Shown: piece by piece, positions 16,169 through 39,960 of the stretch
Layout of the letters: the number at the start of each line of letters is the position of its first letter
Numbering within the stretch: position 1 is the stretch's first letter
Origin: Candidatus Komeilibacteria bacterium RIFOXYD1_FULL_37_29
GTDB lineage: Bacteria > Patescibacteriota > Patescibacteriia > UBA1558 > GWA2-36-10
NCBI GenBank assembly: GCA_001818495.1
Contig: MHKS01000005.1
Span: 250,038-314,037, forward strand
Reading direction: 5' to 3'
Length of the DNA stretch: 64,000 bases
Notes under the pieces: generated by a model
What the model saw: the letters and a program-made list of their open reading frames with translations, nothing else
Databases searched by the model: none
Told to the model about the DNA's origin: nothing
Translations under genes and position numbers: made by a program

Positions 16169-16230
16169 CGTTAGAAATTCAAATTGTATTACTAATGGGA
16201 TAATATAAACAAGTATAAATTTCTAACGGG
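16169..16230 (+). promoter_or_regulatory. Inverted repeat (12-bp arms CCCGTTAGAAAT / ATTTCTAACGGG, 38-nt spacer) between ftsZ and nrdR, abutting the nrdR start codon
   Basis: A perfect 12-bp inverted repeat is read directly. The 5' arm is the motif that recurs at 16985 and 63606. Confidence 0.5.
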
Positions 16231-16704: not shown

Positions 16705-16764
16705 GCTACGGTCGAGGGAAAATAGTTATCCACTTGTGGGCTATTTTTTTTCATGTTAAGATCA

Positions 16765-16955: not shown

Positions 16956-17037
16956 TATAATTTATAATTTAAAATATTATGAACCCCGTTAGAAATTCAT
17001 AAAATATAGCGGGGGAATAAAGAGTAAATATAATATT

Positions 17038-19596: not shown

Positions 19597-19686
19597 GGAG
19601 AGGTGCTAGAGTGGTTGAATAGGGTGCTCTCGAAAAGCACTAGTCCTGAAAGGGACTCGGGGGTTCAAATCCCTCCCTCTCCGCCA
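19597..19686 (+). tRNA. tRNA-Ser (anticodon CGA), type II with a long variable arm, 3' CCA encoded
   Basis: GGAGAGGTG...acceptor, with the pairing CCTCTCC-G-CCA at the 3' end. D-loop AGAGTGGTTGAA. Anticodon loop CTCGAAA. Long extra arm. T-arm GGTTCAAATCC. Confidence 0.85.
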
Positions 19687-20035: not shown

Positions 20036-20190
20036 ACCTCCCTCTCCGCCAGATTACCAAGTTTGAACCCAAGCAAAATAAGGGTTTTGTGCTATTGAAA
20101 AGCCGGTGTCCGAATAAGGTGCTGATTTTTTAAAATCCTTATCAAATGAGTAAATTTTTGGTAAAATAGAGTTAATAAGAATAGAATTAT

Positions 20191-24262: not shown

Positions 24263-24265
24263 ATT

Positions 24266-25450
24266 ATGGCATTAGAATCAGAAAAATTGGAAGAAAAAAT
24301 AGTTGATAATTATTTTACTGATACTCTATATAGTAGTCGGGAATTTAAGGGTGGAGTAGGTAAATTTTTTACAATAGTATCTCAGGATGAAAATGATATC
24401 CCAAATGTAGTTGATGTTGAGCATTCGTATCCTATACGCAATAAAATAAAGACAACGCTGACATTTATCAAAAAAGAAAACGAAATTACAGCCATTTCCT
24501 TTAAGCGTTTTAAATATTATAAAAAAGAACATTGGGTTGAACAACCAGAAGAACAGATTACTTTTTCATACAGTCTTTTTAAAAAAATTATTGGGTATTT
24601 ACAGTTACTATCAGAATTAAATTTGTCGGCTATTAGTGAGCGAAGAATTGCTTTAGCCGATGACACATTACCGAATATTGACGATGAAACAAAAAAGAAG
24701 ATTAAAACATTGCTTTTACGCAAAGATGGGCAAAAAATTATTGAGGAATTAATAAATAGCGGAATAATTACATCAACCGATATTGTAAATATCGGGTATC
24801 GAAAAAAACAACTTGATGTTTTTGAGAAGCTCCTGACACAACCCGATTATTTTGCAACCTATATAACTGAAAGTAAAATTACAGATACTCGTCATGAGTC
24901 TGTTTGGCAACATTTCTTCCATTCTAATGATTGGATTTTTGGATATGGACTAGATTATCGCTTTCTTGGCATCCTGCAAAAAGAAGCTCATATTTCAAAT
25001 ACAGACGTCGCAGGAAAAGGGGCTGTTATAAATGATTTTCTACTCGGGTGCAATAAATTCACCGTTTTGGTTGAATTAAAAAAACACGACACACCATTAT
25101 TTGGAAAAGACAAAAACCGGTCAAACTCTTGGACACTTTCAGATGATTTAATATCTGGTCTATCTCAAATATTAGAGCAAAAAGCTAGTTGGCAGGTTTC
25201 GGCCGAGACAAATGCAAGTGGAAATTTTGACGATAAGGGTAATTTGATAAAACAAAAAACTATCGATCCAAAAAGTATCTTAGTTATCGGATCAACAAAG
25301 CAATTTGATGGTGATGATAAAGAAAATCAAATTAAAGCAAAAACCTTTGAACTTTTTAGACGAGATTCAAGAAATATAGAAATTCTTACTTATGACGAAC
25401 TGTATGAGAGAGCGAAGTTTATTGTTGAACATAAACAGAAAGACAACTAG
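24266..25450 (+). CDS. Putative defense-associated PD-(D/E)xK nuclease, Shedu (SduA/DUF4263)-like
   Basis: 394 aa. Core AVINDFLLGCNKFTVLVELKK gives D...ELK, a PD-(D/E)xK signature. C-terminal KSILVIGST...IEILTYDELYERA resembles DUF4263 ends. Immediately downstream of Type III R-M. Confidence 0.4.
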   Translation: MALESEKLEEKIVDNYFTDTLYSSREFKGGVGKFFTIVSQDENDIPNVVDVEHSYPIRNKIKTTLTFIKKENEITAISFKRFKYYKKEHWVEQPEEQITFSYSLFKKIIGYLQLLSELNLSAISERRIALADDTLPNIDDETKKKIKTLLLRKDGQKIIEELINSGIITSTDIVNIGYRKKQLDVFEKLLTQPDYFATYITESKITDTRHESVWQHFFHSNDWIFGYGLDYRFLGILQKEAHISNTDVAGKGAVINDFLLGCNKFTVLVELKKHDTPLFGKDKNRSNSWTLSDDLISGLSQILEQKASWQVSAETNASGNFDDKGNLIKQKTIDPKSILVIGSTKQFDGDDKENQIKAKTFELFRRDSRNIEILTYDELYERAKFIVEHKQKDN

Positions 25451-25793
25451 GTTTAAATAGAATAATCCACCTCATTTTTGCTCTTATCTGATTTTAGCTT
25501 CGGTGTCTCAAACCATTCTGGATGAACCTTGAACATAGCCCTTAATTCGCGTATACTTTTATCAATATCCTTAAATTTGAACCACTTTTTTGGTTCAAAC
25601 TTCGGGACATCGCCACCGCCACTCGATTCGCATTTTGCTTCGCAAAAAGCTCACTCGTGATCTACGGTGCTAAAGCACCTTCGACCATTCTAATTCTAGA
25701 ATCGAGTGTATTGAGCGAGCGTAGCGAGTCGAAAGGCACGCGCTATCGTGCTAGCATAAGTGTATTAAAAAATTTCTATATAGTTATTAAAAT

Positions 25794-26387
25794 ATGGATC
25801 AACAAACAATCAATACATACAACAGGATGTCACAAGAGTATGATGATGAAACAGCTGATTTTTGGGAGCGATTTCCTCGAACATTTCTTGATAAATTTAT
25901 TAAGCTATCCGGTAATAAAATACTTGATGTTGGGAGCGGACCAGGTAGAGATGGTTTGATACTTCAACAGGCCGGTAAAAATGTTGTCTGTGTGGATGCT
26001 TCTGCAGCAATGGTGAAATTGTCTTCAGACAGAGGTTTAAACTCTATAGTAGCCAGTTTCGACAATTTACCATTTGAAAATAATTCATTTGACGGCGTAT
26101 GGTCATATACTGCTCTTTTACATATTCCCAAAAAATCTATCGATACCCCTCTTCAAGAGATTTTTCGTATTATCAAACCTTCAGGTATTTTTGCTCTTGG
26201 TCTGATTGAAGGGGACACAGAAGGATACAAAGAAAGCTCTGAAGTGACTATGCCTCGTTGGTTTAGTTTCTATCAGAAAGACGAAGTTGAAAATTTATGC
26301 CAAAAGCACGGATTTGAGCTGGTTTACTTTGAGACTTTTAAACCAGGGTCCAAGCCCTATTTGAATTTTATTTTTCGAAAAATATAA
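25794..26387 (+). CDS. Class I SAM-dependent methyltransferase (Methyltransf_11-like)
   Basis: Motif I KILDVGSGPGRDGL. Acidic motif II VVCVDAS. 197 aa. Confidence 0.75.
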   Translation: MDQQTINTYNRMSQEYDDETADFWERFPRTFLDKFIKLSGNKILDVGSGPGRDGLILQQAGKNVVCVDASAAMVKLSSDRGLNSIVASFDNLPFENNSFDGVWSYTALLHIPKKSIDTPLQEIFRIIKPSGIFALGLIEGDTEGYKESSEVTMPRWFSFYQKDEVENLCQKHGFELVYFETFKPGSKPYLNFIFRKI

Positions 26388-26416: not shown

Positions 26417-26665
26417 TTTTCACTGTCTTTTCAGGCAGTTTTTTGGTATAATCAAAGCATTAATTAATAAAAATATTATGATTGACGAAGAAATAAAGCA
26501 AATTATTCAGGAAAATAAGGACACTTTGGCTAATATTGATAAAAGGATTGGTCGGATTGAGAAAAATTTTATTTGGAGTTCAATTTTTGGTTTTATAAAG
26601 ATTGTTATTATTGTAGCACCGATTGTTTTTGGTATTATTTATTTTACGCCATTTTTGAAAGATTT
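26417..26665. repeat. Left copy of a roughly 250-bp direct repeat (about 95% identical to 33399..33648). It carries an extended -10 promoter (TTTTGGTATAAT) and the 5' part of a small membrane-protein gene.
   Basis: Direct sequence comparison. Shared sequence runs from TTTTCACTGTCTTTTCAGGCAGTTTTTTGGTATAATCAAAG through ...TTTACGCCATTTTT. Confidence 0.9.
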
Positions 26666-26690
26666 AAATAAATTGGGTATTATTACATAA
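26478..26690 (+). CDS. Small membrane protein (70 aa). A truncated paralog/duplicate of 33461..33811.
   Basis: MIDEEIKQIIQENKDTLANIDKRIGRIEKNFIWSSIFGFIKIVII... is near-identical to the N-terminus of the 33461 ORF. It diverges where the DNA repeat ends. Confidence 0.6.
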   Translation: MIDEEIKQIIQENKDTLANIDKRIGRIEKNFIWSSIFGFIKIVIIVAPIVFGIIYFTPFLKDLNKLGIIT

Positions 26691-26707: not shown

Positions 26708-28426
26708 ATGAAAAAGTCAAAAGTCATATTAGGGATTACTGCCTTTAATCATGATTCTTCGGCGTGCTTAATTTATCAAGGTAGAGTAATTGCATTTTGT
26801 GAGGAGGAAAGATTCAATGGCATAAAACATACCGGAGATTTTCCGATAAAATCAATTTTATTTTGTTTAGAAAAAGCTGGTTTGTCATTAAATGATGTGA
26901 CTGATGTAGCTTTTTATTTTAATATTAAAAAATGTTTATTGAGTTATATAAAGAACAATAATCCACTCTATTATATTATTCATCCATCTTTATTTAAGAG
27001 GAAAAGATTTTATTATGAAATTATTTGGTTATTTAGTTTTATAAACAAAATTAATTCAATTAAAAAACTCCTTAATAATTATAAGATAAAGATTACTTAT
27101 GTAGATCATCATATGGCGCACGCTTGGTATGGGTATTTTTCTTCAAATTTTAAAAATTGCACGGTAGTTTCTAATGACAGCGTAGGCGAGAGTGTGAGTA
27201 GTTTAGCCGTAAAGATACAGAGAGAAGATAAAAAAATTATTTTTGGTAAGACATTCAGTCAAACAGACCCTCACTCTATTGGGTATTTGTATGGTGCTAT
27301 AACTGAATTTTTAGGATTCAAAAGAGGTCAAGACGAAGGAAAGGTTATGGCTATGGCGGCTTTAGGGAAAGATAAATATGTAAAATATTTTGATGACTTG
27401 ATTAGATATTTACCTAATGGGGAATTTAGAATAAGTAAGGAGTTGATTTCCTTACGTAATTTTCAGCCAAAATCACAAAGATTAAGCAATGATTTTTTAA
27501 AAAAATTTGGATATTATCGTCAACCCCAAGAACCATTTATCCAAAAGCATTATGATATTGCTTATGCAATACAAGGGGTAACGGAAAAAATTTTATATCA
27601 CCAATTAAAATATATTAATGATGATAATATAGTCATTACTGGTGGTATTGCTCAAAATAGTGTAGCCAACGGGAAACTCAACAATTTTTTTTATAAAAGA
27701 AATATATTTATTCCTCCGATTCCTAATGATGCCGGGTGTGGTATTGGCGCGGCGCTTTCTTTATATTATAAGTATTATGAAGATTTACCAGAGTTTGTGG
27801 ATACTGCGTTTTTAGGCCCAGAATTTTCTGATCATAAAATCATTAAAACATTAGAAAATAATAAAATAAATTTTAAAATTATAAAAAATCAGACGGAATT
27901 CATTATTAATGAGCTTTTGAAAAATAAGATTATCGCTATATATAGAAATGAGATGGAGTGTGGTCCTAGGGCATTAGGTAATAGGAGTATAATAGCCAAT
28001 CCAATTGATCCGGCGATGAAGAATTACATCAATGAAAAAATAAAACACCGTGAATTTTTTCAGCCATACGGCGGGTTGATTATTGATAAAAATGTTAAAG
28101 AAGTATTTGATTATAAGAATAAAAATATTTCCGGACCATATATGTCTTTTGTTTATCCAATTAAAGATAAATGGTTAAAAATGTTTCCATCTTTGGTTCA
28201 TTTTGATAAAACTTCTAGAATTCAAATAATAAAGAAGGAACAAAATTTTTTATATAGTCTCTTGGAAGAATTTTATAAAAAAACAGGTGTCCCCGTAATT
28301 ATAAATACTTCCCTTAATTTAAGAGGGCAGCCTATGGCAAGAAGCCATCAAGATGCTTTAAACACATTTTATAATTCGGGGATTCATTATATTTTATTTA
28401 ATAACAGTATTCTAGTTTCAAAATGA
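26708..28426 (+). CDS. NodU/CmcH-family carbamoyltransferase
   Basis: N-terminal KVILGITAFNHDSSACLIYQGRVIAFCEEERFNGIKHTGDFP matches the carbamoyltransferase N-domain (compare TobZ/NodU ...LG...HD.AAAL..DG.I.AA.EEERF.R.KH). A DHHMAHAWYGYF metal-binding motif is present. 572 aa. Confidence 0.85.
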   Translation: MKKSKVILGITAFNHDSSACLIYQGRVIAFCEEERFNGIKHTGDFPIKSILFCLEKAGLSLNDVTDVAFYFNIKKCLLSYIKNNNPLYYIIHPSLFKRKRFYYEIIWLFSFINKINSIKKLLNNYKIKITYVDHHMAHAWYGYFSSNFKNCTVVSNDSVGESVSSLAVKIQREDKKIIFGKTFSQTDPHSIGYLYGAITEFLGFKRGQDEGKVMAMAALGKDKYVKYFDDLIRYLPNGEFRISKELISLRNFQPKSQRLSNDFLKKFGYYRQPQEPFIQKHYDIAYAIQGVTEKILYHQLKYINDDNIVITGGIAQNSVANGKLNNFFYKRNIFIPPIPNDAGCGIGAALSLYYKYYEDLPEFVDTAFLGPEFSDHKIIKTLENNKINFKIIKNQTEFIINELLKNKIIAIYRNEMECGPRALGNRSIIANPIDPAMKNYINEKIKHREFFQPYGGLIIDKNVKEVFDYKNKNISGPYMSFVYPIKDKWLKMFPSLVHFDKTSRIQIIKKEQNFLYSLLEEFYKKTGVPVIINTSLNLRGQPMARSHQDALNTFYNSGIHYILFNNSILVSK

Positions 28427-29247
28427 TTAAAGATTTTCAAAAGATAGAGTTTTTAAAATCACTTTACAGTGATAAAGACTTAATATCGTTTCGTGGCAAT
28501 TTTTTAAAAAATAATTCCAACCGTAAATTCTCATTAAGATCTTTTATTATTAAACTTTTGCCGATGCTAAAGGATAAAAAAATATTAGACATTGGTTGCG
28601 GAGACGGGTCATTCCTCAATAAATTACATACGGTATATCCTCAAAATAAATATTTTGGTTTGGATGTAGTAGATAATGCTAAATGCCATAAATTGAAATT
28701 TCTTGACTACAAAATTTATGATGGTAAATCCAGGGTTTATTATACGGAAAAATTTGATGTGATATTTTGTATGCACACTGTTTATCATATCGAAGATTTA
28801 TTCACTTTTTTTACAACGATGAAAGACTATTTAAAGCCCCATGGCATTATTATCATTACTACGAAGTCTAAATTGACTTTTCCTAAAATAGAATCAATCT
28901 TTTTAAAGATTGTCGGTAAGCTTGACTTAAAAAAATATTTAAAAATTAGCAAACACAGAGAGGAATCAAAATTTTGTTTGGAGAACGGATTAAACAGATT
29001 AAAAAAACACTTCGCTAGGCGGTCATTTAGTATAAATGAGTATGTTTTAGAAACGCAGGTTTTTGTTAATGACAAAAAAGATCTTTTGAAATATGTTTTT
29101 TCTACAAATAGATATAATATTTTGAAAGATACTTTAAACAAAAAAATTGTTGAAAAATATACAAAACTTTGGTTTGAAGAAATTGATAAAGATCAGATAT
29201 TCATTGATAAATATACGGAGGCTGTTTATTTAATAAAAAAATTATGA
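28423..29247 (+). CDS. SAM-dependent methyltransferase
   Basis: Motif I KILDIGCGDGSFLNKL. D-x motif KYFGLDVVD. Start overlaps the upstream stop by 4 nt. Confidence 0.7.
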   Translation: MIKDFQKIEFLKSLYSDKDLISFRGNFLKNNSNRKFSLRSFIIKLLPMLKDKKILDIGCGDGSFLNKLHTVYPQNKYFGLDVVDNAKCHKLKFLDYKIYDGKSRVYYTEKFDVIFCMHTVYHIEDLFTFFTTMKDYLKPHGIIIITTKSKLTFPKIESIFLKIVGKLDLKKYLKISKHREESKFCLENGLNRLKKHFARRSFSINEYVLETQVFVNDKKDLLKYVFSTNRYNILKDTLNKKIVEKYTKLWFEEIDKDQIFIDKYTEAVYLIKKL

Positions 29248-30311
29248 AAATAGGTTATAGTTGCTGGGGATTTTTGGGTAACGGAATAAAGGATACACCG
29301 GATGGCGGGAGGAGTCACCGGTTGACTTTATTGAAAGAATTAATCCGTCAAGGAGTTGAAATAGTAATGTTGCAAAAGAATAGAGACCTCATTGAAGGCA
29401 ATCAAAGTTTTTCACGAAAGAATTTAATATTTAGTGGTGAGTTACCGGAAATAGATGCTCTATTTGTAGAATATAGATGGAAGATAGTAGGAAGGAATTA
29501 TAAGGTGAGAAAAAATAATCCAGCCTATACTCCGGATTTCGATAGACAGAGTGAATTAATTAATTTTTATAATAATAGAAATATTCCTATTATTATTTGG
29601 GATAAAGATCAGAAACTTGGTAAGAATGAAATAAAAGGCATTAAAAATTTGATTGTATTTGAACCTGCTTTAAAGCCAAGGTTTAATAGAAAAAGTTTAT
29701 TGTTTCCGATGGACAATCATAGAACAAAAATTGTCCTCAAATTGATAGGTAAGTATAAAAAAAATATTAAGAGCTCCAAGTTGTGTTACATTGGAAATCA
29801 ATATGAGAGAGATGGTAGTTTTAAAGAGTTTATTAATAAGCCAGCCAGTATGCTCGATACCAAAACACCAGTATTTGGTAATTGGAACAAATATCCAGAA
29901 AAGTATAAGCAAAATATGCAAAAATTTTCCAATGTTGAATTTAAAGGTAGGGTGCAGTTTAATAAAGTTAATAATATTTATAAAAAATCTTTTTCTACAG
30001 TTCTTATCGCGCCACGGAGATATTATATCACGGGTCATTTTACACAAAGATTATTTGAGGCAATGTGGGGCTTATGCATTCCTTTTACCCCGCAGCAATA
30101 TCATGGATGGCAGGGTTTAATAATAAAAGATTTTATAATTAGATCTGGCAAAGATTTAATAAATAAGATAAAAAAATTAGAAACAACGCCCGATTCAGAT
30201 ATAAGGAGAATGTTTGATAGACAGTTTGAGAAACTTAATTTATTTAATGCCAGTAAACAAGCCAGTATAATTATAAACGAAATCAATAATCATAATGGTA
30301 GACTCGGGTAA
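29244..30311 (+). CDS. T4 beta-glucosyl-HMC-transferase-like (BGT-family GT-B) putative DNA glycosyltransferase
   Basis: Comparison with the recalled T4 BGT sequence shows collinear matches. MKIGYSCWGFLGNG vs MKIAIINMGNNVIN. RLTLLKELIRQGVEIVMLQKN vs IYLFKVISEMGLNVDIISLKN. CYIGNQYERDGSF vs IYGGSFRSGQRE. TKTPVFGNWNKYP vs TKAPVFTGKIP. FTQRLFEAM vs ITLRVWETM. 355 aa versus 351 aa for T4 BGT. Confidence 0.55.
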   Translation: MKIGYSCWGFLGNGIKDTPDGGRSHRLTLLKELIRQGVEIVMLQKNRDLIEGNQSFSRKNLIFSGELPEIDALFVEYRWKIVGRNYKVRKNNPAYTPDFDRQSELINFYNNRNIPIIIWDKDQKLGKNEIKGIKNLIVFEPALKPRFNRKSLLFPMDNHRTKIVLKLIGKYKKNIKSSKLCYIGNQYERDGSFKEFINKPASMLDTKTPVFGNWNKYPEKYKQNMQKFSNVEFKGRVQFNKVNNIYKKSFSTVLIAPRRYYITGHFTQRLFEAMWGLCIPFTPQQYHGWQGLIIKDFIIRSGKDLINKIKKLETTPDSDIRRMFDRQFEKLNLFNASKQASIIINEINNHNGRLG

Positions 30312-31074
30312 TAAAAATAAATCTTTAGAAATTGTAATTGATTCTAAACACTATATTAAAAAAAGATATTCTGATATCCAACGTTTTTTTTGTGAATTAA
30401 AATATCTTAAATATTTTAAAGATGAAGATATCAATGTTCCTTTTATATATAAATTTGATAAAATCCAAAAAACAATAATAATAGATAAAATAAAGGGGAA
30501 AATCGGCGATTCATTAAATAATAGAGACACAAAACTATGCATTGATGTGCTTGTCAAAATAATTTTTATTTTTGGTTTGGAAAAGAAAAATAATAATGAA
30601 ATTGATAGGTATATTTCAAAAGTCAGGTCAAATATAATATGGTGGTGTGAAAATAATAATTATATAGTAGAAAAAGAAAAATTAAATATTTTACTTCAAA
30701 AGTTAAGAAAAGTGTGTTATATATCTTTATTCAAAGATGCCAAACCATCTAATTGGATTTTTCAAAAAGATAAAATATACGCAATAGACTTTGATTATGT
30801 AAAAAAATCATTTTTTTTAGCAGATTTAGCACAACTTTTAAGTTATATTTCATTAAGGAAAAAAATAAGTTATATTTTCTTTGTAAATTATTATCTAAAG
30901 CAAATATTCCCAAAAATGAAGGATTATGATAAATTTTATATACCTTTTAAATTAGCGCTTGTTAATTCCAACATTGCTTCTGAACTTCACAGAGAGAATT
31001 TAGGAGCCTATGTAAAAAGGGGTTTTGCCAAACAAAACAGGTTTATTTTGAGTGAATTTAAGATAATATTATAA
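30295..31074 (+). CDS. Atypical protein-kinase-like (Kdo/WaaP/RIO-type) small-molecule kinase
   Basis: Catalytic-loop-like FKDAKPSNWIF (D-x-K-P-x-N) and a metal-binding IYAIDFDYV (DFD) motif. 259 aa. Confidence 0.4.
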   Translation: MVDSGNKNKSLEIVIDSKHYIKKRYSDIQRFFCELKYLKYFKDEDINVPFIYKFDKIQKTIIIDKIKGKIGDSLNNRDTKLCIDVLVKIIFIFGLEKKNNNEIDRYISKVRSNIIWWCENNNYIVEKEKLNILLQKLRKVCYISLFKDAKPSNWIFQKDKIYAIDFDYVKKSFFLADLAQLLSYISLRKKISYIFFVNYYLKQIFPKMKDYDKFYIPFKLALVNSNIASELHRENLGAYVKRGFAKQNRFILSEFKIIL

Positions 31075-31955
31075 TGTCAATATCAATAACCGCCAAATCA
31101 GCTAATGAAGCATTCATTAAAATAGCTGATAAATTGTATAATAATCCGGAATATGTTTCTAGTCCTCGAAGCTGGGAAACAAGGGAGTTATTAGGGGCTT
31201 TTATTGTTATCAACAATCCCTATGATCGTTTTATAAATAATGTTCATAGGAAGATTTCTTTAAAGTATCTTATTGGTGAATGGTTATGGTATGAGCGAGG
31301 ATCCAATTCTTTAAATGAAATTAATTATTATGCAAAATTTTGGAGCAGTATTTCGGATGATAAAATAACTGCCAATTCAGCTTATGGTCATAGAATTTTA
31401 GGGATCAATAAGTTCGTGATTATTAATCAATGGAAGTGGGCCAAACGGCAAATAATAAAAGATAAGGAAACAAGGAGAGCCATCATTTTTATTGGATTGC
31501 CAAGTGATATGAAAAACGAAACGAAAGATTTTCCTTGCACTATGTCACTCCAGTTTTTAATAAGAAATAATGAGTTACATTTAATTTGCAATATGAGGAG
31601 CAATGATTTAGTATTGGGTTTTACTTATGATGTAGCTACCTTTACTTTATATCAAGAAAAAATGTTGTTGGAGTTGAAAAAATATTATCCAAAATTAAAG
31701 ATAGGTAAATATTTTCATATGGTAGGCAGTTTACACGTATATAAGAAAAACTATGAGATGATAAAAAAAGTGATAAATGATCAGGACAATAATTTGAAAA
31801 TTACCATGCCTCGCATGGGTGATTTAAAAGAAATAAAAAAACTCCAGTATAACGAGAGTATTATAAGAGAAAATAAAAATAAAAAGTTTAAAAAAATTGA
31901 AGATAGATTCTGTATCTGGTGTCAGAATATTTTATTAAATAAAATTAAATACTAA
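31074..31955 (+). CDS. Thymidylate-synthase-family pyrimidine-nucleotide C5 (hydroxy)methylase with predicted dCMP specificity (deoxycytidylate hydroxymethylase-like)
   Basis: Collinear with E. coli ThyA. KYLIGEWLWYERG vs RSIIHELLWFLQG. The YG loop is conserved. RRAII vs RRIIV. FPCTMSLQFLIRNNELHLICNMRSNDLVLGFTYDVATF vs [38 protein letters not shown]. The catalytic Cys is present. The Asn that reads O4/N3 of dUMP (E. coli N177) is Asp here, as in T4 dCMP hydroxymethylase (Asp179). Confidence 0.7.
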   Translation: MSISITAKSANEAFIKIADKLYNNPEYVSSPRSWETRELLGAFIVINNPYDRFINNVHRKISLKYLIGEWLWYERGSNSLNEINYYAKFWSSISDDKITANSAYGHRILGINKFVIINQWKWAKRQIIKDKETRRAIIFIGLPSDMKNETKDFPCTMSLQFLIRNNELHLICNMRSNDLVLGFTYDVATFTLYQEKMLLELKKYYPKLKIGKYFHMVGSLHVYKKNYEMIKKVINDQDNNLKITMPRMGDLKEIKKLQYNESIIRENKNKKFKKIEDRFCIWCQNILLNKIKY

Positions 31956-31956
31956 A

Positions 31957-32628
31957 ATGAAAGGCATAATTATAGACGGAGTTGTTTCTTCTGGTAAAAC
32001 GTCTATCTTAAAACATCTTCATCGTCTGATTTCAGAACAAAACCCTACTTCAACCAAGTTTTTTATTAGTGAACACTATACTGAGAGAATGTTGGAGCAT
32101 TTGAAAGATAAAGGTGAATTAGACGGTAGCCATATAAAAGCCCACGTTGATCAGTTAATCCATACTTTAGCTTCTTTTCAGTCTATGTTGGATAATTCTA
32201 AGTTTCGTGATAACCCGAAAGGAGCAGATTTGTTTGTTACTTTAGAAAGATTTATTCTAACCCATTTGTCCTCAGTGGACATAGGAGATAAATATAGTCT
32301 TGATGAAGTCAAAGCTCATTTTGAAATTTTAAACAAGCTAGGAGTAAAACAAGTAGCTTTAATAATTCCCGAATCAAGACTAAAAGAAAATATCATGTCG
32401 ACTCTGCAATATCGAAATGACGCCTGGTTGGATTATTTGTATTCTAGGGGTGGAGAAAAAGAAATTATAGAATATTATATCAATTGGCAGAATAATTTTT
32501 TAGAGTATATCAACAAATTTAAAGATATAATAGATACCTTAGTCATCGAAGTAAAAGATCAAGACTATCTTCAATATAGTAATACTATTTTTAATAGTTG
32601 TATTAAATCAGATATTCTCTCAAAATAA
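31957..32628 (+). CDS. P-loop nucleoside/deoxynucleoside monophosphate kinase-like protein
   Basis: N-terminal Walker A MKGIIIDGVVSSGKTSILKHL. 223 aa. The position after the ThyA-like gene mirrors phage dNMP kinases. Confidence 0.45.
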   Translation: MKGIIIDGVVSSGKTSILKHLHRLISEQNPTSTKFFISEHYTERMLEHLKDKGELDGSHIKAHVDQLIHTLASFQSMLDNSKFRDNPKGADLFVTLERFILTHLSSVDIGDKYSLDEVKAHFEILNKLGVKQVALIIPESRLKENIMSTLQYRNDAWLDYLYSRGGEKEIIEYYINWQNNFLEYINKFKDIIDTLVIEVKDQDYLQYSNTIFNSCIKSDILSK

Positions 32629-33114
32629 ATGTTTTTTAATTTTATGTTTTTTATACTTTACCCCGGCTAAATCAAAGAGTTTTTTAGAAACGATAAAATT
32701 ATTCGCATCTTTGTCTGATCTATCATCTTGATAGATTATATTTTTTATGCCGCTTTGGATAATAATTTTTGCACACTCATTGCAGGGGAAGAGTAAACAG
32801 TAAAGTTTTGCATTTTCGGCTGATTGATTAGTATTTAAAATGGCATTTACTTCAGCGTGAACAACATACGGATATTTTGTATTTAAGATATTTTTTTTGT
32901 TATGCCCGTAATTATTACTCCAAGAAAAATGCCCTTCCTTAATACCTCTAGGCCAACCGTTGTAGCCAACTCCTAAAACAACATTATTTTTATCAACCAC
33001 GACAGCTCCGGTTTGAGTTGATGGGTCTTTTGATCTCTGAGCTATAACTTGAGCCATTAGCATAAATGTTTCATCCCACGATAAATAGTTTTTTCTAGCT
33101 TTTATATTATCCAT
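32620..33114 (-). CDS. Deoxycytidylate (dCMP) deaminase
   Basis: Zinc site HAEVNAI and PCNECAKII (cytidine/deoxycytidylate deaminase signature). 164 aa. Convergent with the kinase gene. Confidence 0.85.
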   Translation of the reverse strand: MDNIKARKNYLSWDETFMLMAQVIAQRSKDPSTQTGAVVVDKNNVVLGVGYNGWPRGIKEGHFSWSNNYGHNKKNILNTKYPYVVHAEVNAILNTNQSAENAKLYCLLFPCNECAKIIIQSGIKNIIYQDDRSDKDANNFIVSKKLFDLAGVKYKKHKIKKHLF

Positions 33115-33398: not shown

Positions 33399-33648
33399 TT
33401 TTTCACTGTCTTTTCAGGCAGTTTTTTGGTATAATCAAAGCATTAATTAATAAAAATATTATGATTGACGAAGAAATAAAGCAAATTATTCAGGAAAATA
33501 AGGAAACTTTAGCTAATATTGATAAAAGAATTGGTCGGATTGAGAAAAATTTTATTTGGAGTTCAATTTTTGGTTTTGTAAAGATTGTTATTATTTTAGG
33601 GCCGATTATTTTTGGTATTATTTATTTTACGCCATTTTTAAAAGATTT
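33399..33648. repeat. Right copy of the roughly 250-bp direct repeat (see 26417..26665), including promoter TTTTGGTATAAT
   Basis: Direct comparison. Confidence 0.9.
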
Positions 33649-33811
33649 TATTCGTATTTATGAACCATTTTTCAAGAATCTACCGATTACTTTACAAAAT
33701 TTAAACAATCCTTCTTCGGACTCAAATATTCCAACTGGCGCTCAGGCTGGGTTAGAAAATTTTTGTGATCCACAAGTTCGCGAGGCCATGATCGATAGTC
33801 TTTGTAAATAA
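33461..33811 (+). CDS. Small membrane protein (117 aa). The full-length version of the duplicated gene.
   Basis: Starts MIDEEIKQIIQENKETLANIDKRIGRIEKNFIW... 12 nt after an A-rich stretch downstream of TGGTATAAT. The ORF track begins earlier at 33386, but the ATG at 33461 matches the paralog. Confidence 0.55.
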   Translation: MIDEEIKQIIQENKETLANIDKRIGRIEKNFIWSSIFGFVKIVIILGPIIFGIIYFTPFLKDFIRIYEPFFKNLPITLQNLNNPSSDSNIPTGAQAGLENFCDPQVREAMIDSLCK

Positions 33812-36485: not shown

Positions 36486-37799
36486 TTGATGAGCAAAAGC
36501 AAAATATTTTTGTTGGTTAGTTTTATTTTTTTAGCTGGTAATTTTTTTTGGTTGTTATATTTTGAAGATAGGGGAAACCATAATTTTAATTATGGTTCTT
36601 TTTATAGTTTCACCGCCCAGGTAGTCAGAGTTGATAAAAAAATTAATGGTTATAATATTGTGGTCCGTCCCGAAGGACTGGCCGATTTTTTCGGTCAGAT
36701 TTTGTTGTATACGCCACTTTACCCGGAGTATTATTATGGCGATATTTTGCAAATCTCCGGCAAGATTTATCAGCCGGAAAAACTAGCTGGCGACGATGGT
36801 CAGGTTTTTGCTTATGATAAATATCTCGCCAAAGATAATATTTTTGGCACCAGCTTCCGGCCGATTTTAAAAAAAATTGGTCAGTCAAAAAATCTGACTT
36901 TTTATGTTTATCAGGCCAGGCATTATTTTTGGCAAAACCTCAATGATTATTTGAGAGAGCCAGCTTCGGCTTTGGCCAAGGCCATGTTTTTGTCTCCTCA
37001 GCGGGAAATCAGCCCAGAGCTTTGGGATGTTTTTGCCAAAGTCGGCGTCAGTCATATGATCTCTATTTCCGGTTCGCATATGGTGATTATTATTTGGTTG
37101 TTGCAGTCTTTTTTGATTGCCGTGGGGTTTAGCAGAAAATCAGCTTGGTGGTGGCTGGTGATTTTTTTGTTGTTTTATTTATATTTGATTGGTTTTATCA
37201 GTCCGGCGGTACGCTCGGCCGCCATGGCTATCATTTTATTGTCCGGGCCATTTGTGGGTCGTCAGACTGATTCAGTTTATAGTCTGTTTTTGGTGGCCGA
37301 TATTTTGGTAGCTTTAAATCCTTTTATTATTTTATATGATATTGGTTTTCAGTTGTCTTTTTTGGCGGTTTTGGGATTGGTGTATTATGCTAGATTTTTT
37401 AATAAAATTTTGATTTTTATTCCTAGTAAATTCAAATTGCGCGAAGTCTTGGCCATGACTTTGGCCTCACAAGTGTTTACTTGGCCAATTACTGTTTATA
37501 ATTTTGGTATATTTTCCATTGTGGCTCCTTTGGCCAATTTTTTGATTCTGCCACTACTTCCAGCAGTTTTAGTTTTGTCCATGGCTTTAAGTGTCTGTGG
37601 CTTTTGGCCGTTTTTAGCCGAGCTTATCTCCTGGTCATTATTTTTGCTTTTAAAAATCATTGTCTTGATCAGTCAGCTGTTATCGCAAGTGTCTTATGCT
37701 TCTGTTTATATCAAAGGTTTTGATATTTGGTCTTTGTTTTTGTCTTTATTTTTTATAGGTGTTATTACTTGGATTTTAAAGCCACGGTCTTATGAATAA
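36486..37799 (+). CDS. comEC: ComEC/Rec2 competence channel, membrane (competence) domain
   Basis: Polytopic. Conserved VGVSHMISISGSHMVII (ComEC H-x-x-SG-x-H motif). N-terminal OB-like region. Confidence 0.75.
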   Translation: MMSKSKIFLLVSFIFLAGNFFWLLYFEDRGNHNFNYGSFYSFTAQVVRVDKKINGYNIVVRPEGLADFFGQILLYTPLYPEYYYGDILQISGKIYQPEKLAGDDGQVFAYDKYLAKDNIFGTSFRPILKKIGQSKNLTFYVYQARHYFWQNLNDYLREPASALAKAMFLSPQREISPELWDVFAKVGVSHMISISGSHMVIIIWLLQSFLIAVGFSRKSAWWWLVIFLLFYLYLIGFISPAVRSAAMAIILLSGPFVGRQTDSVYSLFLVADILVALNPFIILYDIGFQLSFLAVLGLVYYARFFNKILIFIPSKFKLREVLAMTLASQVFTWPITVYNFGIFSIVAPLANFLILPLLPAVLVLSMALSVCGFWPFLAELISWSLFLLLKIIVLISQLLSQVSYASVYIKGFDIWSLFLSLFFIGVITWILKPRSYE

Positions 37800-39381: not shown

Positions 39382-39960
39382 ATGAATTTTAAAGAGGAAA
39401 AAACATTTGTGATGATCAAGCCGGACGGTGTCCGCAAGAATCTGATTGGCGAAATTATTGCTCGTTTTGAACAACGCGATTTAAAAATAGTAGCTTTGGA
39501 AATGTTTCAGCCAACTGTTGCCCAGATTGATGAGCATTATCCCAAGGATAAGGCTTGGATCGCTCGCTTGGGTCAAAAAACTTTAAGTACTTATGAAAAA
39601 TACGGAGTTGATCCGATTAAAGAGCTGGGTACTGACAATGATTTTGAAATTGGTCAGATGGTCCGCAAGTGGTTGGTTGATTATATGACCTCTGCTCCTT
39701 TGGTTAGAATGGTGGTCCAAGGTATTCATGCGGTTGATATGGTTCGTAAAATTTGCGGTGTCACTATTCCCAATATGGCTGACATGGGTACTATTCGTGG
39801 TGATTTTTCCTCTGATTCTCCTTCAGTAGCTAATAGTGAAAAAAGAGCAGTAATGAATTTGATCCATGCGTCTGAAACTCCGCAAGAAGCTGAACACGAA
39901 ATGAAACATTGGTTTGGAAGCAGAAAGGTTATATTCAATTACGAGCGTTACCAAGATTAA
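39382..39960 (+). CDS. ndk: Nucleoside diphosphate kinase
   Basis: TFVMIKPDGV and the NxxHASD-like region NLIHASE. 192 aa. Confidence 0.85.
   Translation: MNFKEEKTFVMIKPDGVRKNLIGEIIARFEQRDLKIVALEMFQPTVAQIDEHYPKDKAWIARLGQKTLSTYEKYGVDPIKELGTDNDFEIGQMVRKWLVDYMTSAPLVRMVVQGIHAVDMVRKICGVTIPNMADMGTIRGDFSSDSPSVANSEKRAVMNLIHASETPQEAEHEMKHWFGSRKVIFNYERYQD

What the first reader, a model, noticed from the sequence alone, without database searches (positions are those of the whole stretch)
26708..33114. Candidate T4-like 5-hydroxymethylcytosine glycosylation/hypermodification system in a cellular (CPR-like) chromosome
The cassette combines the following, and the set parallels the T-even phage hmC pathway (gp42, gp1, cd, bgt):
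(a) a ThyA-family enzyme with the dCMP-specific Asp.
(b) a P-loop dNMP-kinase-like protein.
(c) a dCMP deaminase.
(d) a T4 beta-glucosyl-HMC-transferase-like GT-B protein.
It also has a NodU/CmcH carbamoyltransferase, a SAM methyltransferase and a small Kdo/RIO-like kinase. These could further decorate the sugar or base, for example a carbamoylated or methylated glucosyl-hmC. Nothing like this is expected in a minimal episymbiont genome. It could render host DNA resistant to restriction (note the adjacent R-M/Shedu island), or it could be a remnant of a CPR phage.
Basis: partly seen in the sequence, partly recalled or inferred. Interest (0 to 1): 0.9.

Follow-up and report, generated by a model that had tools for sequence, protein, structure and literature searches.

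The report
Phage-style cytosine hypermodification cassette in bacterium
A small symbiotic (CPR) bacterium carries an intact, mobile seven-gene cassette that looks built to make 5-hydroxymethyl-deoxycytidine and hang a decorated sugar on it, as some phages do to their DNA; the same gene set recurs in about 300 bacterial species, including culturable Streptomyces, so it can be tested whether cells modify their own DNA this way.

Summary
All seven genes are at the stated coordinates and intact. The ThyA homolog has the catalytic Cys, Asp at the N177 and L143 positions (cytosine, hydroxymethyl), and keeps Ser167/Arg126 (deoxyribo type) and Asp169 (not a 5-hydroxy-dCMP synthase). The 355-aa protein is a GT-B glycosyltransferase; its best solved-structure match is T4 beta-glucosyltransferase. 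Its family occurs in 31 uncultivated phage contigs, next to a ThyA homolog in 27 and near a TMK-like kinase in 26, inside replication modules. The P-loop protein has an NMP-kinase fold.

The window is a Komeilibacteria chromosome, not a phage. The cassette has low GC, is flanked by a 249-nt direct repeat, and is under purifying selection (dN/dS 0.09-0.18). The core ThyA, carbamoyltransferase, GT, P-loop kinase, methyltransferase and APH-like kinase recurs in CPR, Rickettsiales and Bdellovibrionales and in 65-74 of 74 actinomycete-type loci.

Best reading (confidence 0.5): a phage-type 5hmdC glycosylation pathway with carbamoyl/methyl/phosphate tailoring, acting on DNA. That the cell's own chromosome is the target is inferred, not shown. 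The main rival is a soluble modified-nucleotide product. I found no published description of the cellular version.

The parts
26417..26665 (.). Left copy of the 249-nt direct repeat bounding the cassette. It holds a hairpin, an extended -10-like TGGTATAAT and the 5' part of a small membrane-protein gene.
   Evidence: the repeat finder family D1: 96% identity, spacing 6983 nt. Alignment; hairpin.
26478..26690 (+). Truncated duplicate (70 aa) of the small TM-protein gene. It ends 18 nt before the carbamoyltransferase start, so its promoter could drive the operon (inferred).
   Evidence: ORF list; alignment with the intact copy.
26708..28426 (+). NodU/TobZ-family O-carbamoyltransferase (572 aa).
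   Evidence: Carbam_trans_C 3.6e-54 and Carbam_trans_N 1.2e-41; phrog_1601 1.7e-112; PDB 7xb6 9e-66, GdmN, NovN, TobZ. Present in 71 of 74 actinomycete-type loci.
28423..29247 (+). Class I SAM-dependent methyltransferase (274 aa, motif ILDIGCGDG); substrate unknown.
   Evidence: Methyltransf_23 3.6e-16; best PDB hit phosphoethanolamine N-MTase 2.5e-9; conserved in cassette homologs.
29244..30311 (+). GT-B glycosyltransferase of an uncharacterised family (355 aa), T4 beta-glucosyltransferase-like by fold. Candidate 5-hydroxymethylcytosine glycosyltransferase.
   Evidence: AF2 pLDDT 92.9. Foldseek PDB top hit T4 BGT 1qkj, 3e-11. hhalign to T4 BGT E 1.9e-4, with R189/R269/E272 aligned to BGT R195/R269/E272. 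258 homologs. 31 phage loci, 27 with ThyA nearby. Invariant residues shared with the phage members.
30295..31074 (+). Protein-kinase-like (APH/Bud32-like) small-molecule kinase (259 aa; motifs DAKPSN and IDFDY). Fused to the GT in some homologs.
   Evidence: Weak Bud32 (2.1e-6) and APH (0.0035) hits. Homologs carry PF01636. GT-kinase fusions P0010 and P0014.
31074..31955 (+). ThyA-family pyrimidine hydroxymethylase (293 aa), predicted dCMP to 5-hydroxymethyl-dCMP.
   Evidence: PDB MilA 1.5e-30, T4 gp42 1.3e-17. Residues E58, R126, R127, L143D, C146, H147T, S167, D169, N177D, read.
31957..32628 (+). P-loop protein with NMP-kinase fold (223 aa; Walker A GVVSSGKTS; ERF motif). Candidate 5hm-dCMP kinase.
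   Evidence: AF2 pLDDT 85.8. Foldseek hits adenylate and dTMP kinases, E about 1e-5. Family of 31 proteins, one named thymidylate kinase by JGI. Analogous TMK-like kinases lie within 4 kb of the GT in 26 of 31 phage loci.
32620..33114 (-). dCMP deaminase (164 aa), convergent, overlapping the 3' end of the P-loop gene by 9 nt.
   Evidence: dCMP_cyt_deam_1 2.4e-23; phrog_174 6.7e-39. Present in CPR cassette copies and in 18 of 31 phage GT loci.
33400..33648 (.). Right copy of the 249-nt direct repeat.
33461..33811 (+). Intact small TM-protein gene (116 aa) whose 5' part was duplicated by the insertion. It marks the target site and is not part of the pathway.
   Evidence: Every assembly holding this exact protein with enough upstream DNA also carries the cassette.
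39382..39960 (+). Chromosomal nucleoside diphosphate kinase. It lies outside the cassette and could supply the diphosphate-to-triphosphate step (inferred).
   Evidence: PF00334 NDK 7.7e-36.

Best explanation
The cassette is an intact, horizontally acquired operon encoding a phage-type pathway that makes 5-hydroxymethyl-deoxycytidine nucleotides and decorates the hydroxymethyl group, most likely in DNA. None of the steps below has been assayed; each is inferred on the basis given.

1. The ThyA homolog converts dCMP plus methylene-tetrahydrofolate to 5-hm-dCMP. This rests on active-site residues.
2. The NMP-kinase-fold P-loop protein makes the diphosphate. The chromosomal NDK makes the triphosphate, and the cell's polymerase incorporates it. 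In E. coli, expressing a phage ThyA homolog with its dNMP kinase is enough to put the modified C into cellular and plasmid DNA (published result).
3. The BGT-like GT-B enzyme transfers a sugar from a nucleotide sugar onto the 5-hydroxymethyl group. This rests on fold, conserved UDP-site residues and phage gene context.
4. The APH-like kinase, which is fused to the GT in some homologs, the O-carbamoyltransferase and the methyltransferase tailor that sugar. Alternatively, the carbamoyltransferase caps unglycosylated hmC as 5-carbamoyloxymethyl-C, or the kinase makes the sugar-1-phosphate for the donor. Other variants add a sulfotransferase, PAPS synthesis genes or a UDP-glucose dehydrogenase.
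5. The dCMP deaminase balances the dCMP and dUMP pools.

There is no dCTPase, so replacement of C would be partial. The product would be nuclease- and restriction-resistant DNA. In this cell the only DNA available is its own chromosome.
For: ThyA residues:
- Cys nucleophile; L143D (hydroxymethyl rather than methyl); N177D (cytosine); D169 retained (not a 5hodCMP synthase); S167 and R126 retained (deoxyribo type, unlike MilA A176/K133), read.

GT:
- High-confidence GT-B model with T4 BGT as top PDB hit. Phage GTs, including BGT-like and SP-15 proteins, appear among the BFVD hits.
- hhalign aligns family invariants R189, R269 and E272 with BGT R195, R269 and E272.
- 27 of 31 viral loci with a GT homolog have a ThyA homolog within 10 kb, against 1 of 73 control viral loci chosen by carbamoyltransferase (Fisher p = 1.3e-19).
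- 26 of 31 have a TMK-like kinase within 4 kb of the GT, and about 21 of those directly abut it.
- These loci lie in replication modules with DnaB, Pol III alpha, a gp32-like SSB, TK, a PRA-PH-dCMP-deaminase fusion and UDP-sugar enzymes.
- Phage and cellular GTs share nearly all invariant residues in both domains, which argues for the same acceptor chemistry.

Other points:
- Three unrelated P-loop kinase families (CPR, actinomycete, phage) occupy the same neighbourhood, and the CPR one has an NMP-kinase fold.
- The architecture matches the published RB69, DLP3 and RL38J1 cytosine-glycosylation clusters: ThyA homolog, TMK-like nucleotide kinase, GT-B and APH-like sugar kinase.
- It also matches the ThyA plus carbamoyltransferase plus dCMP deaminase signature of C-modified phage DNA.
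- There is no MilB/BcmB-type N-glycosidase and no exporter in the cassette.
- The operon is intact, with dN/dS 0.09-0.18 for all seven genes against an 84%-identical copy in a different genomic context.
Against: - No chemistry has been measured, so the acceptor (DNA or free nucleotide) is inferred.
- No dCTPase or MazG is in the cassette, unlike T4 and many phage loci.
- The carbamoyltransferase, methyltransferase and APH-like kinase are absent from the phage GT loci, so the cellular system is not simply the phage one.
- The window's carbamoyltransferase is no closer to the only ThyA-linked viral carbamoyltransferase recovered (26% identity) than to unrelated cyanophage-type ones (31-36%).
- In actinomycetes the core sits in a larger cluster with regulators and sugar-phosphate enzymes that looks like a biosynthetic gene cluster.
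- 36 Streptomyces ThyA homologs have Gly at the S167 position, and two loci have MilA-like Lys/Ala or Lys/Gly, which may permit ribonucleotides.
- To my knowledge, pre-replicative hypermodification of a cellular chromosome has no precedent.
- The margin of T4 BGT over other GT-B folds is small, and the hhalign probability is only 48%.
Confidence: 0.5

Rival explanations
1. The pathway stops at a soluble product. 5-hm-dCMP or 5-hm-CMP is glycosylated, carbamoylated, methylated and phosphorylated as a free nucleotide or nucleoside. The product would act as an antimetabolite, a natural product or an anti-phage nucleotide poison rather than being built into DNA.
For: - The only characterised cellular ThyA-type cytosine hydroxymethylases, MilA and BcmA, serve nucleoside antibiotic pathways, and MilA is the best PDB match.
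- The actinomycete version is a 9-15-gene cluster with LuxR/HATPase regulators, two APH-type kinases, HAD and histidine phosphatases, a NUDIX hydrolase and a nucleotidyltransferase, typical of secondary metabolism.
- Some ThyA homologs carry Gly/Ala at S167 and Lys at R126, the ribo type.
- The published 5hmC carbamoyltransferase also works on free 5hmdCTP and 5hmCTP.
- The window copy lies in a defence island with Type III R-M and Shedu.
Against: - No MilB/BcmB-like N-glycosidase, no exporter and no resistance gene is in the cassette.
- The window and CPR ThyA homologs carry the deoxyribo signature.
- An NMP-kinase-type protein is retained through three non-orthologous replacements, which points toward di- and triphosphates.
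- The GT shares its acceptor-domain invariants with phage GTs embedded in replication modules.
- No PADLOC defence model matches specifically; only generic methyltransferase and deaminase-domain matches were found.
- The defence-island context is not conserved in other genomes.
Confidence: 0.27
2. The enzymes modify RNA (tRNA or rRNA cytidines) or the ribonucleotide pool rather than DNA.
For: - The MetaGPA carbamoyltransferase showed activity on 5hmC-containing RNA and on 5hmCTP.
- The kinase has faint Bud32/KEOPS similarity.
- MilA-type enzymes act on CMP.
Against: - The ThyA homolog has Ser167 and Arg126, the deoxyribo determinants.
- A dCMP deaminase is part of the module.
- Phage relatives sit with DNA replication genes.
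- ThyA-family enzymes act on mononucleotides, and random incorporation into RNA would not give site-specific modification.
Confidence: 0.06
3. The genes are unrelated neighbours: an ordinary thymidylate synthase, dCMP deaminase and thymidylate kinase (dTTP supply) lying next to glycan-tailing enzymes (GT, carbamoyl-, methyl-transferase, sugar kinase) that act on a cell-surface sugar.
For: - NodU-type carbamoyltransferases, methyltransferases and sulfotransferases classically decorate oligosaccharides.
- TS, dCMP deaminase and TMK together would be a coherent dTTP pathway.
- The GT carries a weak CgeB-like Pfam label in homologs.
Against: - The ThyA homolog lacks Asn177, Leu143 and His147 and scores far below all TS equivalog cut-offs.
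- ThyA, carbamoyltransferase and GT are syntenic in 71 of 74 actinomycete-type loci and in the CPR, Rickettsiales and Bdellovibrionales cassettes.
- GT and ThyA are also linked in phages that have no glycan genes.
- The ORFs overlap as one operon.
Confidence: 0.05
4. The cassette is a decaying, non-functional remnant of a CPR phage genome.
For: - GC is 27-30% against 33-45% in the flanks.
- Direct repeats flank the cassette.
- The components have phage relatives.
Against: - All seven ORFs are full length.
- dN/dS is 0.09-0.18 against a diverged copy.
- The same unit is kept in different chromosomal contexts and phyla.
- The 64-kb window has no phage structural, integrase or replication genes.
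Confidence: 0.03

Closest known systems
T-even phage hmC glucosylation pathway (gp42 dCMP hydroxymethylase, gp1 dNMP kinase, gp56 dCTPase, Cd dCMP deaminase, alpha/beta-glucosyltransferases)
   Same: - A ThyA-family enzyme with Cys, Asp177-equivalent, Asp143-equivalent and an NMRSND motif identical to gp42.
- An NMP-kinase-fold protein, a dCMP deaminase and a GT-B enzyme whose best structural match is T4 BGT.
- The GT gene lies next to the hydroxymethylase gene, as b-gt does next to gene 42 in T4.
   Different: - It resides in a cellular chromosome.
- It has no dCTPase.
- The GT has no sequence-level membership in the BGT family (no Pfam hit; hhalign covers the C-terminal domain only, probability 48%).
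- The kinase is unrelated in sequence to gp1.
- It has three extra core enzymes: carbamoyltransferase, methyltransferase and APH-like kinase.
- The ThyA homolog is only 27% identical to gp42 and is closer to MilA.
5-carbamoyloxymethylcytosine (5cmdC) pathway of uncultivated phages (Yang et al. 2021, eLife, PMC8670742)
   Same: A NodU/TobZ-type carbamoyltransferase co-occurs with a ThyA(Asp177) homolog and a dCMP deaminase, the combination that paper found only on cytosine-modified contigs.
   Different: - No PRA-PH pyrophosphatase is present.
- A GT, a methyltransferase and two kinases are additionally conserved.
- Orthology of the carbamoyltransferase with the characterised enzyme is not shown: the only ThyA-linked viral relative recovered is 26% identical.
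- The host is a cell, not a phage.
Arabinosyl/hexosyl-5-hydroxycytosine clusters of RB69, DLP3 and RL38J1 (Lee et al. 2026, NAR, PMC13326640)
   Same: The cluster logic is the same: a ThyA homolog (best PDB hit also MilA), a TMK-like 'nucleotide kinase', GT-B transferases, an APH-like sugar kinase, and in some variants phosphatases and NDP-sugar enzymes.
   Different: - The diagnostic D169N of 5hodCMP synthases is absent here (Asp retained), so the base should be 5-hydroxymethyl-C, not 5-hydroxy-C.
- The GT family is different; tblastn found no hit in 50,697 phage records.
- The APH-like kinase is fused or adjacent to the GT rather than to a nucleotidyltransferase.
MilA/BcmA hydroxymethyl-CMP pathways (mildiomycin, bacimethrin)
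   Same: MilA is the closest solved relative of the ThyA homolog (1.5e-30). These are cellular gene clusters, and the bacimethrin pathway also includes a methyltransferase and a kinase (recalled from the literature, not checked here).
   Different: - MilA and BcmA have Ala176/Lys133 (ribo type), whereas the window enzyme has Ser/Arg.
- No MilB/BcmB N-glycosidase releases the free base.
- The GT family is linked to phage DNA replication modules.

Membership tests
ThyA-family dCMP hydroxymethylase (T4 gp42 type) | Catalytic Cys146 equivalent plus Asp in place of Asn177 (cytosine specificity) | tested here: met
   The motifs DFPCT and FTYDV align to T4 gp42 and MilA. The column check across 108 homologs is.
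ThyA-family dCMP hydroxymethylase (T4 gp42 type) | Acidic residue in place of Leu143 (water access, giving hydroxymethyl rather than methyl) | tested here: met
   Asp at the position three residues before the Cys. The criterion comes from the paper read.
ThyA-family dCMP hydroxymethylase (T4 gp42 type) | Deoxyribose-type pocket: Ser167 and Arg126' (MilA and BcmA have Ala and Lys) | tested here: met
   MRSND and ETRRA are present.
ThyA-family dCMP hydroxymethylase (T4 gp42 type) | Enzymatic conversion of dCMP to 5hm-dCMP | not testable with these tools
   Needs an enzyme assay.
Canonical thymidylate synthase | Asn177, Leu143 and His147, and a score above the TS equivalog cut-offs | tested here: not met
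   The residues are D, D and T. The best NCBIfam TS score is 62.7 bits against a cut-off of 327.
5-hydroxy-dCMP synthase (RB69 gp48 type) | D169N substitution | tested here: not met
   Asp is retained in MRSND.
CMP hydroxymethylase (MilA/BcmA) | Ala176 and Lys133 (ribose preference), with a partner MilB/BcmB N-glycosidase | tested here: not met
   Ser and Arg are present instead. None of the seven proteins hits a nucleoside deoxyribosyltransferase or hydrolase family.
T4 beta-glucosyltransferase family | Sequence membership in Pfam's T4 beta-glucosyltransferase model or a significant sequence match to BGT | tested here: not met
   No Pfam hit of any kind and no PDB sequence hit. hhalign covers only the C-terminal domain, with probability 47.8% and E 1.9e-4.
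T4 beta-glucosyltransferase family | GT-B fold with BGT as nearest structure, and UDP-binding Arg/Arg/Glu conserved | tested here: met
   Foldseek top hit 1qkj at 3e-11, TM 0.61. R189, R269 and E272 align with BGT R195, R269 and E272 and are invariant in 22 cellular and 28 phage members. The roles of the BGT residues are from my own knowledge.
T4 beta-glucosyltransferase family | Transfers a sugar to 5-hmC in DNA | not testable with these tools
   Supported only by gene context in phages.
T4-type complete hmC replacement system | dCTPase/dUTPase (gp56 or MazG/PRA-PH) to exclude dCTP | tested here: not met
   No such domain occurs in the seven proteins. It is present in phage relatives, for example the L022 PRA-PH-deaminase fusion.
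T4-type complete hmC replacement system | dNMP kinase accepting hm-dCMP | tested here: inconclusive
   The fold is NMP kinase, but there is no sequence homology to gp1 or to the phage TMK-like kinases. Substrate is unknown.
5cmdC system (Yang 2021) | Co-occurrence of Carbam_trans_N/C, ThyA(Asp177) and dCMP deaminase | tested here: met
5cmdC system (Yang 2021) | Carbamoyltransferase orthologous to the characterised 5hmC carbamoyltransferase | tested here: inconclusive
Of 73 viral carbamoyltransferase relatives, only one (26% identity) is ThyA-linked.
Known anti-phage defence systems (PADLOC) | A specific match of cassette proteins to a defence-system model | tested here: not met
   Only generic methyltransferase (mad2 domain) and deaminase-domain matches were found.

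The most novel reading that the evidence does not exclude
A free-living or episymbiotic cell, namely this Komeilibacteria bacterium and by extension other CPR bacteria, Rickettsiales, Bdellovibrionales and a few hundred actinomycete species, uses a phage-style, nucleotide-pool route to replace part of the cytosine in its own chromosome. The replacement would be a glycosylated, carbamoylated, methylated and phosphorylated (in some variants sulfated) 5-hydroxymethylcytosine. That would be the first cellular pre-replicative DNA hypermodification and a new family of DNA glycosyltransferases. It could serve self/non-self discrimination in organisms that scavenge or attack foreign DNA.
Probability: 0.3. 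Interest if true: 0.95.

Novelty: new variant of a known kind. Interest (0 to 1): 0.75.

Why it matters
- Hypermodified pyrimidines made through ThyA homologs are known only from phage DNA and from two nucleoside-antibiotic pathways. A conserved, selection-maintained cellular cassette with the phage logic plus its own tailoring enzymes would be one of two things. It could be the first case of a cell hypermodifying its own DNA through the nucleotide pool, or it could be a new class of modified-nucleotide metabolites.
- The 355-aa GT defines an uncharacterised, widespread family: 31 phage contigs, including jumbo phages, and 312 bacterial species. It is a strong candidate new DNA hmC glycosyltransferase. 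Such enzymes are useful reagents for 5hmC mapping, as T4 BGT is.
- The same core occurs in culturable Streptomyces, Kitasatospora and Micromonospora strains, so the question can be settled with routine nucleoside LC-MS.
- For CPR biology it bears on how minimal episymbionts protect their DNA.

Tried and rejected
- Sequence-family searches for the GT and the P-loop protein (Pfam, PHROGs, NCBIfam, PADLOC, PDB sequences) gave nothing usable. The P-loop 'hits' to de novo TIM barrels are low-complexity artefacts.
- tblastn of the GT against 50,697 deposited phage genomes found no match, so no cultured phage with known chemistry carries this GT.
- I tried to link the carbamoyltransferase to DNA modification through viral relatives. 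The 73 IMG/VR relatives are 26-47% identical (most 31-36%), but only one has ThyA nearby. Most look like cyanophage/pelagiphage-type auxiliary genes. The carbamoyltransferase's role therefore rests on its synteny in cellular loci.
- Isoelectric point as a proxy for DNA binding was inconclusive. GT homologs range from pI 5 to 10, and the window's proteins are basic mainly because the DNA is AT-rich.
- The search for an empty-site allele failed. The exact-pattern metagenome scan found nothing, and every assembly encoding the exact TM protein with enough upstream DNA carries the cassette.
- Promoter-like sites are not enriched over shuffles in this AT-rich DNA.
- I looked for a conserved nuclease or helicase partner, as in an R-M-like or Dpd-like arrangement, in 74 actinomycete-type loci. 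None is conserved.
- Literature searches for a cellular version found nothing. The identity of PDB 7xb6 could not be traced.
- Rejected readings: ordinary TS, CMP hydroxymethylase, 5hodCMP synthase and dUMP hydroxymethylase (all by residues), and prophage remnant.

Full report
**Observation.** The region 26708-33114 holds seven intact ORFs.
- Six are on the + strand with overlapping or abutting boundaries, which indicates one operon: 28423/28426, 29244/29247, 30295/30311, 31074/31074, 31955/31957.
- The seventh is a convergent dCMP deaminase gene overlapping the last + strand gene by 9 nt.

Family assignments:
- Carbamoyltransferase: Carbam_trans_N/C at 1e-41 and 4e-54, PHROG 'Nol-like carbamoyltransferase' at 1.7e-112, and PDB relatives GdmN, NovN and TobZ.
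- Methyltransferase: class I SAM-dependent.
- dCMP deaminase: 2.4e-23.
- ThyA homolog: passes Pfam's Thymidylat_synt threshold but is far below every NCBIfam TS equivalog cut-off (62.7 bits against 327).
- The 355-aa and 223-aa proteins have no family hit in Pfam, PHROGs, NCBIfam, PADLOC or PDB sequences.
- The 259-aa protein is only faintly Bud32/APH-like but shows the DxKPxN catalytic loop and a DFD motif.

**What the replicon is.** The 355-aa and 223-aa proteins are identical to proteins of 'Candidatus Komeilibacteria bacterium RIFOXYC1_FULL_37_11'.
- Upstream of the cassette lie YbeY, DgkA, FtsA, FtsZ and NrdR. Downstream lie prfB, ComEC, NDK, S12/S7, EF-G and EF-Tu. The window contains no phage structural, integrase or replication genes.
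- Between tRNA-Ser (19597-19686) and prfB lies a low-GC island with a Type III R-M system, Shedu SduA (PADLOC 1.7e-154), a methyltransferase and the cassette.
- Cassette GC is 27-30%, against 33-45% in the flanks.
- A 249-nt direct repeat (96% identity, 6983 nt apart) bounds the cassette. It duplicates a hairpin, an extended -10-like promoter and the first ~62 codons of a small membrane-protein gene. That is the footprint expected from single-crossover integration of a circular intermediate (inference).
- A JGI contig (L117) carries an 84%-identical copy of exactly these seven genes in unrelated flanks.
- dN/dS between the two copies is 0.09-0.18 for every gene.
- The cassette is therefore mobile, functional and under selection, not a decaying phage remnant.

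**The ThyA homolog.** Its best solved relatives are MilA CMP hydroxymethylase (1.5e-30) and T4 dCMP hydroxymethylase (1.3e-17), ahead of thymidylate synthases. I read the active-site positions against published determinants.

| E. coli ThyA position | Here | Meaning | Source |
|---|---|---|---|
| Asn177 | Asp | cytosine substrate | |
| Leu143 | Asp | hydroxymethyl, not methyl | |
| Asp169 | Asp retained | not a 5-hydroxy-dCMP synthase (those have D169N) | |
| Ser167, Arg126' | both retained | deoxyribo type; CMP-preferring MilA/BcmA have Ala and Lys | |

- The window enzyme reads E-R-R-D-C-T-R-S-N-D-D at E58, R126, R127, L143, C146, H147, R166, S167, C168, D169 and N177.
- It shares NMRSND with T4 gp42.
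- The prediction is a dCMP 5-hydroxymethylase.

**The glycosyltransferase.**
- An alignment of 22 homologs gave an AF2 model with pLDDT 92.9.
- Foldseek against the PDB ranks T4 beta-glucosyltransferase first (E 3e-11, TM 0.61), followed closely by other GT-B enzymes. T4 alpha-GT also appears.
- In BFVD the best hits are uncharacterised phage proteins and a 351-residue entry the length of T4 BGT. A 'DNA beta-glucosyltransferase' and the phage SP-15 GT rank 7th and 10th.
- hhalign of the family profile against T4 BGT aligns the C-terminal domain (E 1.9e-4, probability 48%). It places the family-invariant R189, R269 and E272 on BGT R195, R269 and E272, which I recall as UDP-binding residues (the residue roles are from my own knowledge).

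The family is not confined to cells.
- 31 IMG/VR contigs, up to 416 kb, encode a relative.
- 27 of those 31 have a ThyA homolog of the same Asp/Asp/Ser type within 10 kb. Three of the four exceptions are truncated by contig ends.
- 18 also have a dCMP deaminase.
- As a control, only 1 of 73 viral loci chosen for a carbamoyltransferase relative has ThyA nearby. Fisher p = 1.3e-19.
- A TMK-like P-loop kinase lies within 4 kb of the GT in 26 of 31 loci and directly abuts it in about 21.
- Two loci annotated in detail place the GT inside replication and nucleotide-metabolism modules:
  - L022: DnaB, UDP-glucose dehydrogenase, SDR epimerase, UDG-family protein, P-loop kinase, radical-SAM protein, GT, ThyA, PRA-PH-dCMP-deaminase fusion, Pol III alpha, gp32-like SSB.
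  - L010: Pol III alpha, GT, P-loop kinase, ThyA, SDR, cupin, TK, DHH, dCMP deaminase.
- The 28 non-redundant phage GTs keep almost all residues that are invariant in cellular members, in both the acceptor (N-terminal) and donor (C-terminal) domains. That argues for the same acceptor chemistry.
- In T4 itself, b-gt is the immediate neighbour of gene 42.
Activity remains untested.

**The kinases.**
- The 223-aa P-loop protein belongs to a small family of 31 proteins, one of which JGI names thymidylate kinase.
- Its AF2 model (pLDDT 85.8) matches adenylate and dTMP kinases. It carries an ERF motif where TMKs have DRY (sequence inspection; my own knowledge).
- It is not sequence-homologous to the phage TMK-like kinases or to the 167-aa P-loop protein of the actinomycete clusters. 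All three occupy the same neighbourhood, which is non-orthologous displacement of one function.
- The APH-like kinase is fused to the GT in at least two homologs (P0010 with 58% identity, P0014 with 42% identity to the window kinase), so the two act together.

**Distribution in cells.**
- The genome scan found GT relatives in 312 species genomes. They include Paceibacterota, Saccharibacteria, Woesebacteria, Rickettsiales, Amoebophilaceae, Bdellovibrionales, Acidimicrobiia, Solirubrobacterales and Anaerolineae, plus many Streptomyces, Kitasatospora, Micromonospora and relatives.
- CPR, Rickettsiales and Bdellovibrionales loci carry the same genes as the window, in shuffled order. Optional additions are a sulfotransferase (L121, L122), CysN/CysC PAPS synthesis (L197) or UDP-glucose dehydrogenase (L123, L197).
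- Gene presence in the 74 actinomycete-type loci:

| Gene | Loci (of 74) |
|---|---|
| GT | 74 |
| ThyA | 71 |
| Carbamoyltransferase | 71 |
| P-loop protein | 68 |
| Methyltransferase | 66 |
| APH-type kinase | 65 |
| SDR epimerase | 65 |

- These loci often add a second APH kinase, a histidine phosphatase, a HAD phosphatase, a NUDIX hydrolase and a nucleotidyltransferase.
- The six-gene core is therefore the same from CPR to actinomycetes.
- The carbamoyltransferase, methyltransferase and APH-like kinase are specific to the cellular version. HMMs for the methyltransferase and the kinase, and tblastn with all three proteins, find none of them in the phage GT loci.
- No nuclease or helicase partner is conserved.
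- The R-M/Shedu neighbourhood of the window is not reproduced elsewhere.

**Mechanism.** I propose five steps, as in phage systems; none has been assayed and each is inferred on the basis given.
1. dCMP is converted to 5hm-dCMP by the ThyA homolog (rests on active-site residues).
2. The NMP-kinase-fold protein makes 5hm-dCDP. The chromosomal NDK (39382-39960) makes the triphosphate, which is then incorporated.
3. The GT glycosylates the 5-hydroxymethyl group (rests on fold and gene context).
4. The carbamoyltransferase, methyltransferase, APH-like kinase and, in variants, a sulfotransferase tailor the sugar.
5. The dCMP deaminase adjusts the nucleotide pool.

- Published work supports step 2. 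Co-expressing a phage ThyA homolog with its dNMP kinase in E. coli suffices to place the modified cytosine in cellular and plasmid DNA.
- The published RB69, DLP3 and RL38J1 clusters share the architecture ThyA homolog, TMK-like nucleotide kinase, GT-B and APH-like sugar kinase.
- The carbamoyl, methyl and sulfate set is the classical repertoire for decorating sugars, as in Nod factors and aminoglycosides (my own knowledge).
- Alternatively, the carbamoyltransferase may cap hmC directly, as the MetaGPA enzyme does on ssDNA and on 5hmdCTP.
- The kinase may instead make the sugar-1-phosphate for the donor, as proposed for RB69. These points are unresolved.
- Without a dCTPase, replacement of C would be partial.

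**Rivals.**
- The serious rival is a soluble modified-nucleotide or nucleoside product, such as a natural product or an anti-phage antimetabolite.
  - In its favour: the two known cellular cytosine hydroxymethylases (MilA, BcmA) serve antibiotic pathways; the actinomycete locus looks like a biosynthetic gene cluster; some ThyA homologs have Gly/Ala at S167 and Lys at R126; and the carbamoyltransferase precedent also acts on free triphosphates.
  - Against it: there is no N-glycosidase, exporter or resistance gene; the CPR enzymes carry the deoxyribo signature; an NMP-kinase function persists through three replacements; and the GT shares its acceptor domain with replication-module phage GTs.
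- RNA modification, coincidental adjacency of dTTP-synthesis genes with glycan-tailoring genes, and a dead phage remnant are each contradicted by residue, synteny or selection data.

**Novelty.**
- The components and the logic are known from phages: T4, the 5cmdC system and the arabinosyl-5hoC systems.
- New here are the GT family, the fixed association with carbamoyltransferase, methyltransferase and APH-like kinase, and above all the cellular residence and breadth.
- Seven full-text searches aimed at a cellular version, out of ten in all, found no description of one. This is absence in that library, not proof of absence.
- I rate it a new variant of a known kind.
- There is roughly a 0.3 chance that it represents the first cellular pre-replicative DNA hypermodification.

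**Limits.**
- No chemistry can be measured here.
- The acceptor, the sugar, the order of tailoring steps and whether the operon is expressed all remain inferences.
- The BGT resemblance is at fold and motif level, not family membership.

Noticed in passing
window 26417-26665 and 33400-33648: A 249-nt direct repeat (96% identity) flanks the cassette exactly. It duplicates a hairpin, a TGGTATAAT promoter-like element and the 5' part of a small TM-protein gene. This leaves a truncated 70-aa copy upstream (26478-26690) and the intact 116-aa gene downstream (33461-33811). It looks like the scar of a single-crossover insertion of a roughly 7-kb circular intermediate.
   Followed up: yes
L117 1-6940 (JGI 3300033064 contig): This is an 84%-identical copy of the same seven genes in unrelated flanks. 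It is bounded by its own 40-nt direct repeat (12-51 and 6882-6921), which also looks like a promoter. Several other contigs carrying GT homologs are also about 6.8-7.0 kb long, so assemblies may break at such repeats.
   Followed up: partly
window 19597-26387: A low-GC defence island lies next to tRNA-Ser(CGA). It holds a Type III R-M system (mod 20191-22020, res 22001-24262), Shedu SduA (24266-25450) and a stand-alone class I SAM methyltransferase (25794-26387) just outside the repeat. No integrase was seen.
   Followed up: partly
window 77-10813: A single giant ORF of 3578 aa (TTG start) is followed by two proteins with bacterial TSP3 repeats (10835-11731, 11736-12854). They are probably large surface or adhesion proteins of the episymbiont.
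   Followed up: no
P0010 and P0014 (homologs of window 29244-31074): The GT and the APH-like kinase are fused into single proteins of about 600 aa in some metagenomic homologs. In the window the two genes overlap by 17 nt.
   Followed up: yes
L002 (Streptomyces nigrescens CP114202, 7.06 Mb), locus coordinates 4784-18343: Actinomycetes carry the same six-gene core inside a larger cluster. The extra genes are a HAD phosphatase, a 623-aa unknown protein, a histidine phosphatase, a second APH kinase, an SDR epimerase, an SAHH-like dehydrogenase, a NUDIX hydrolase and a nucleotidyltransferase, next to HATPase/LuxR regulators. S. tanashiensis JCM 4086 has two copies (L095, L115).
   Followed up: partly
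L008 (IMGVR_UViG_2818991273_000001) and L104 (Salinispora cortesiana): The GT-linked ThyA homologs in these two loci carry MilA-like ribo-type residues (Lys at R126, with Ala or Gly at S167). 36 Streptomyces homologs have Gly at S167. Sugar specificity (CMP or dCMP) may therefore differ within the family.
   Followed up: partly
L197 (Rickettsiales MAG CALXXG010000190) 195-8932; L121 and L122 11819-12975: Cassette variants add a UDP-glucose dehydrogenase, a sulfotransferase or CysN/CysC-type PAPS synthesis genes. This suggests uronic-acid or sulfated sugar versions of the product.
   Followed up: partly
window 37792-38586: A metallo-beta-lactamase-fold protein lies just after ComEC. In the precomputed annotation of an identical contig it also carries a weak Anti-Pycsar Apyc1 hit.
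   Followed up: no
CAKLQA020000002.1 / OV298652.1 (Acinetobacter phage MD-2021a): This deposited phage genome has a NodU-family carbamoyltransferase and a ThyA homolog about 1.6 kb apart. It is a possible cultured or assembled example of the 5cmdC type.
   Followed up: no
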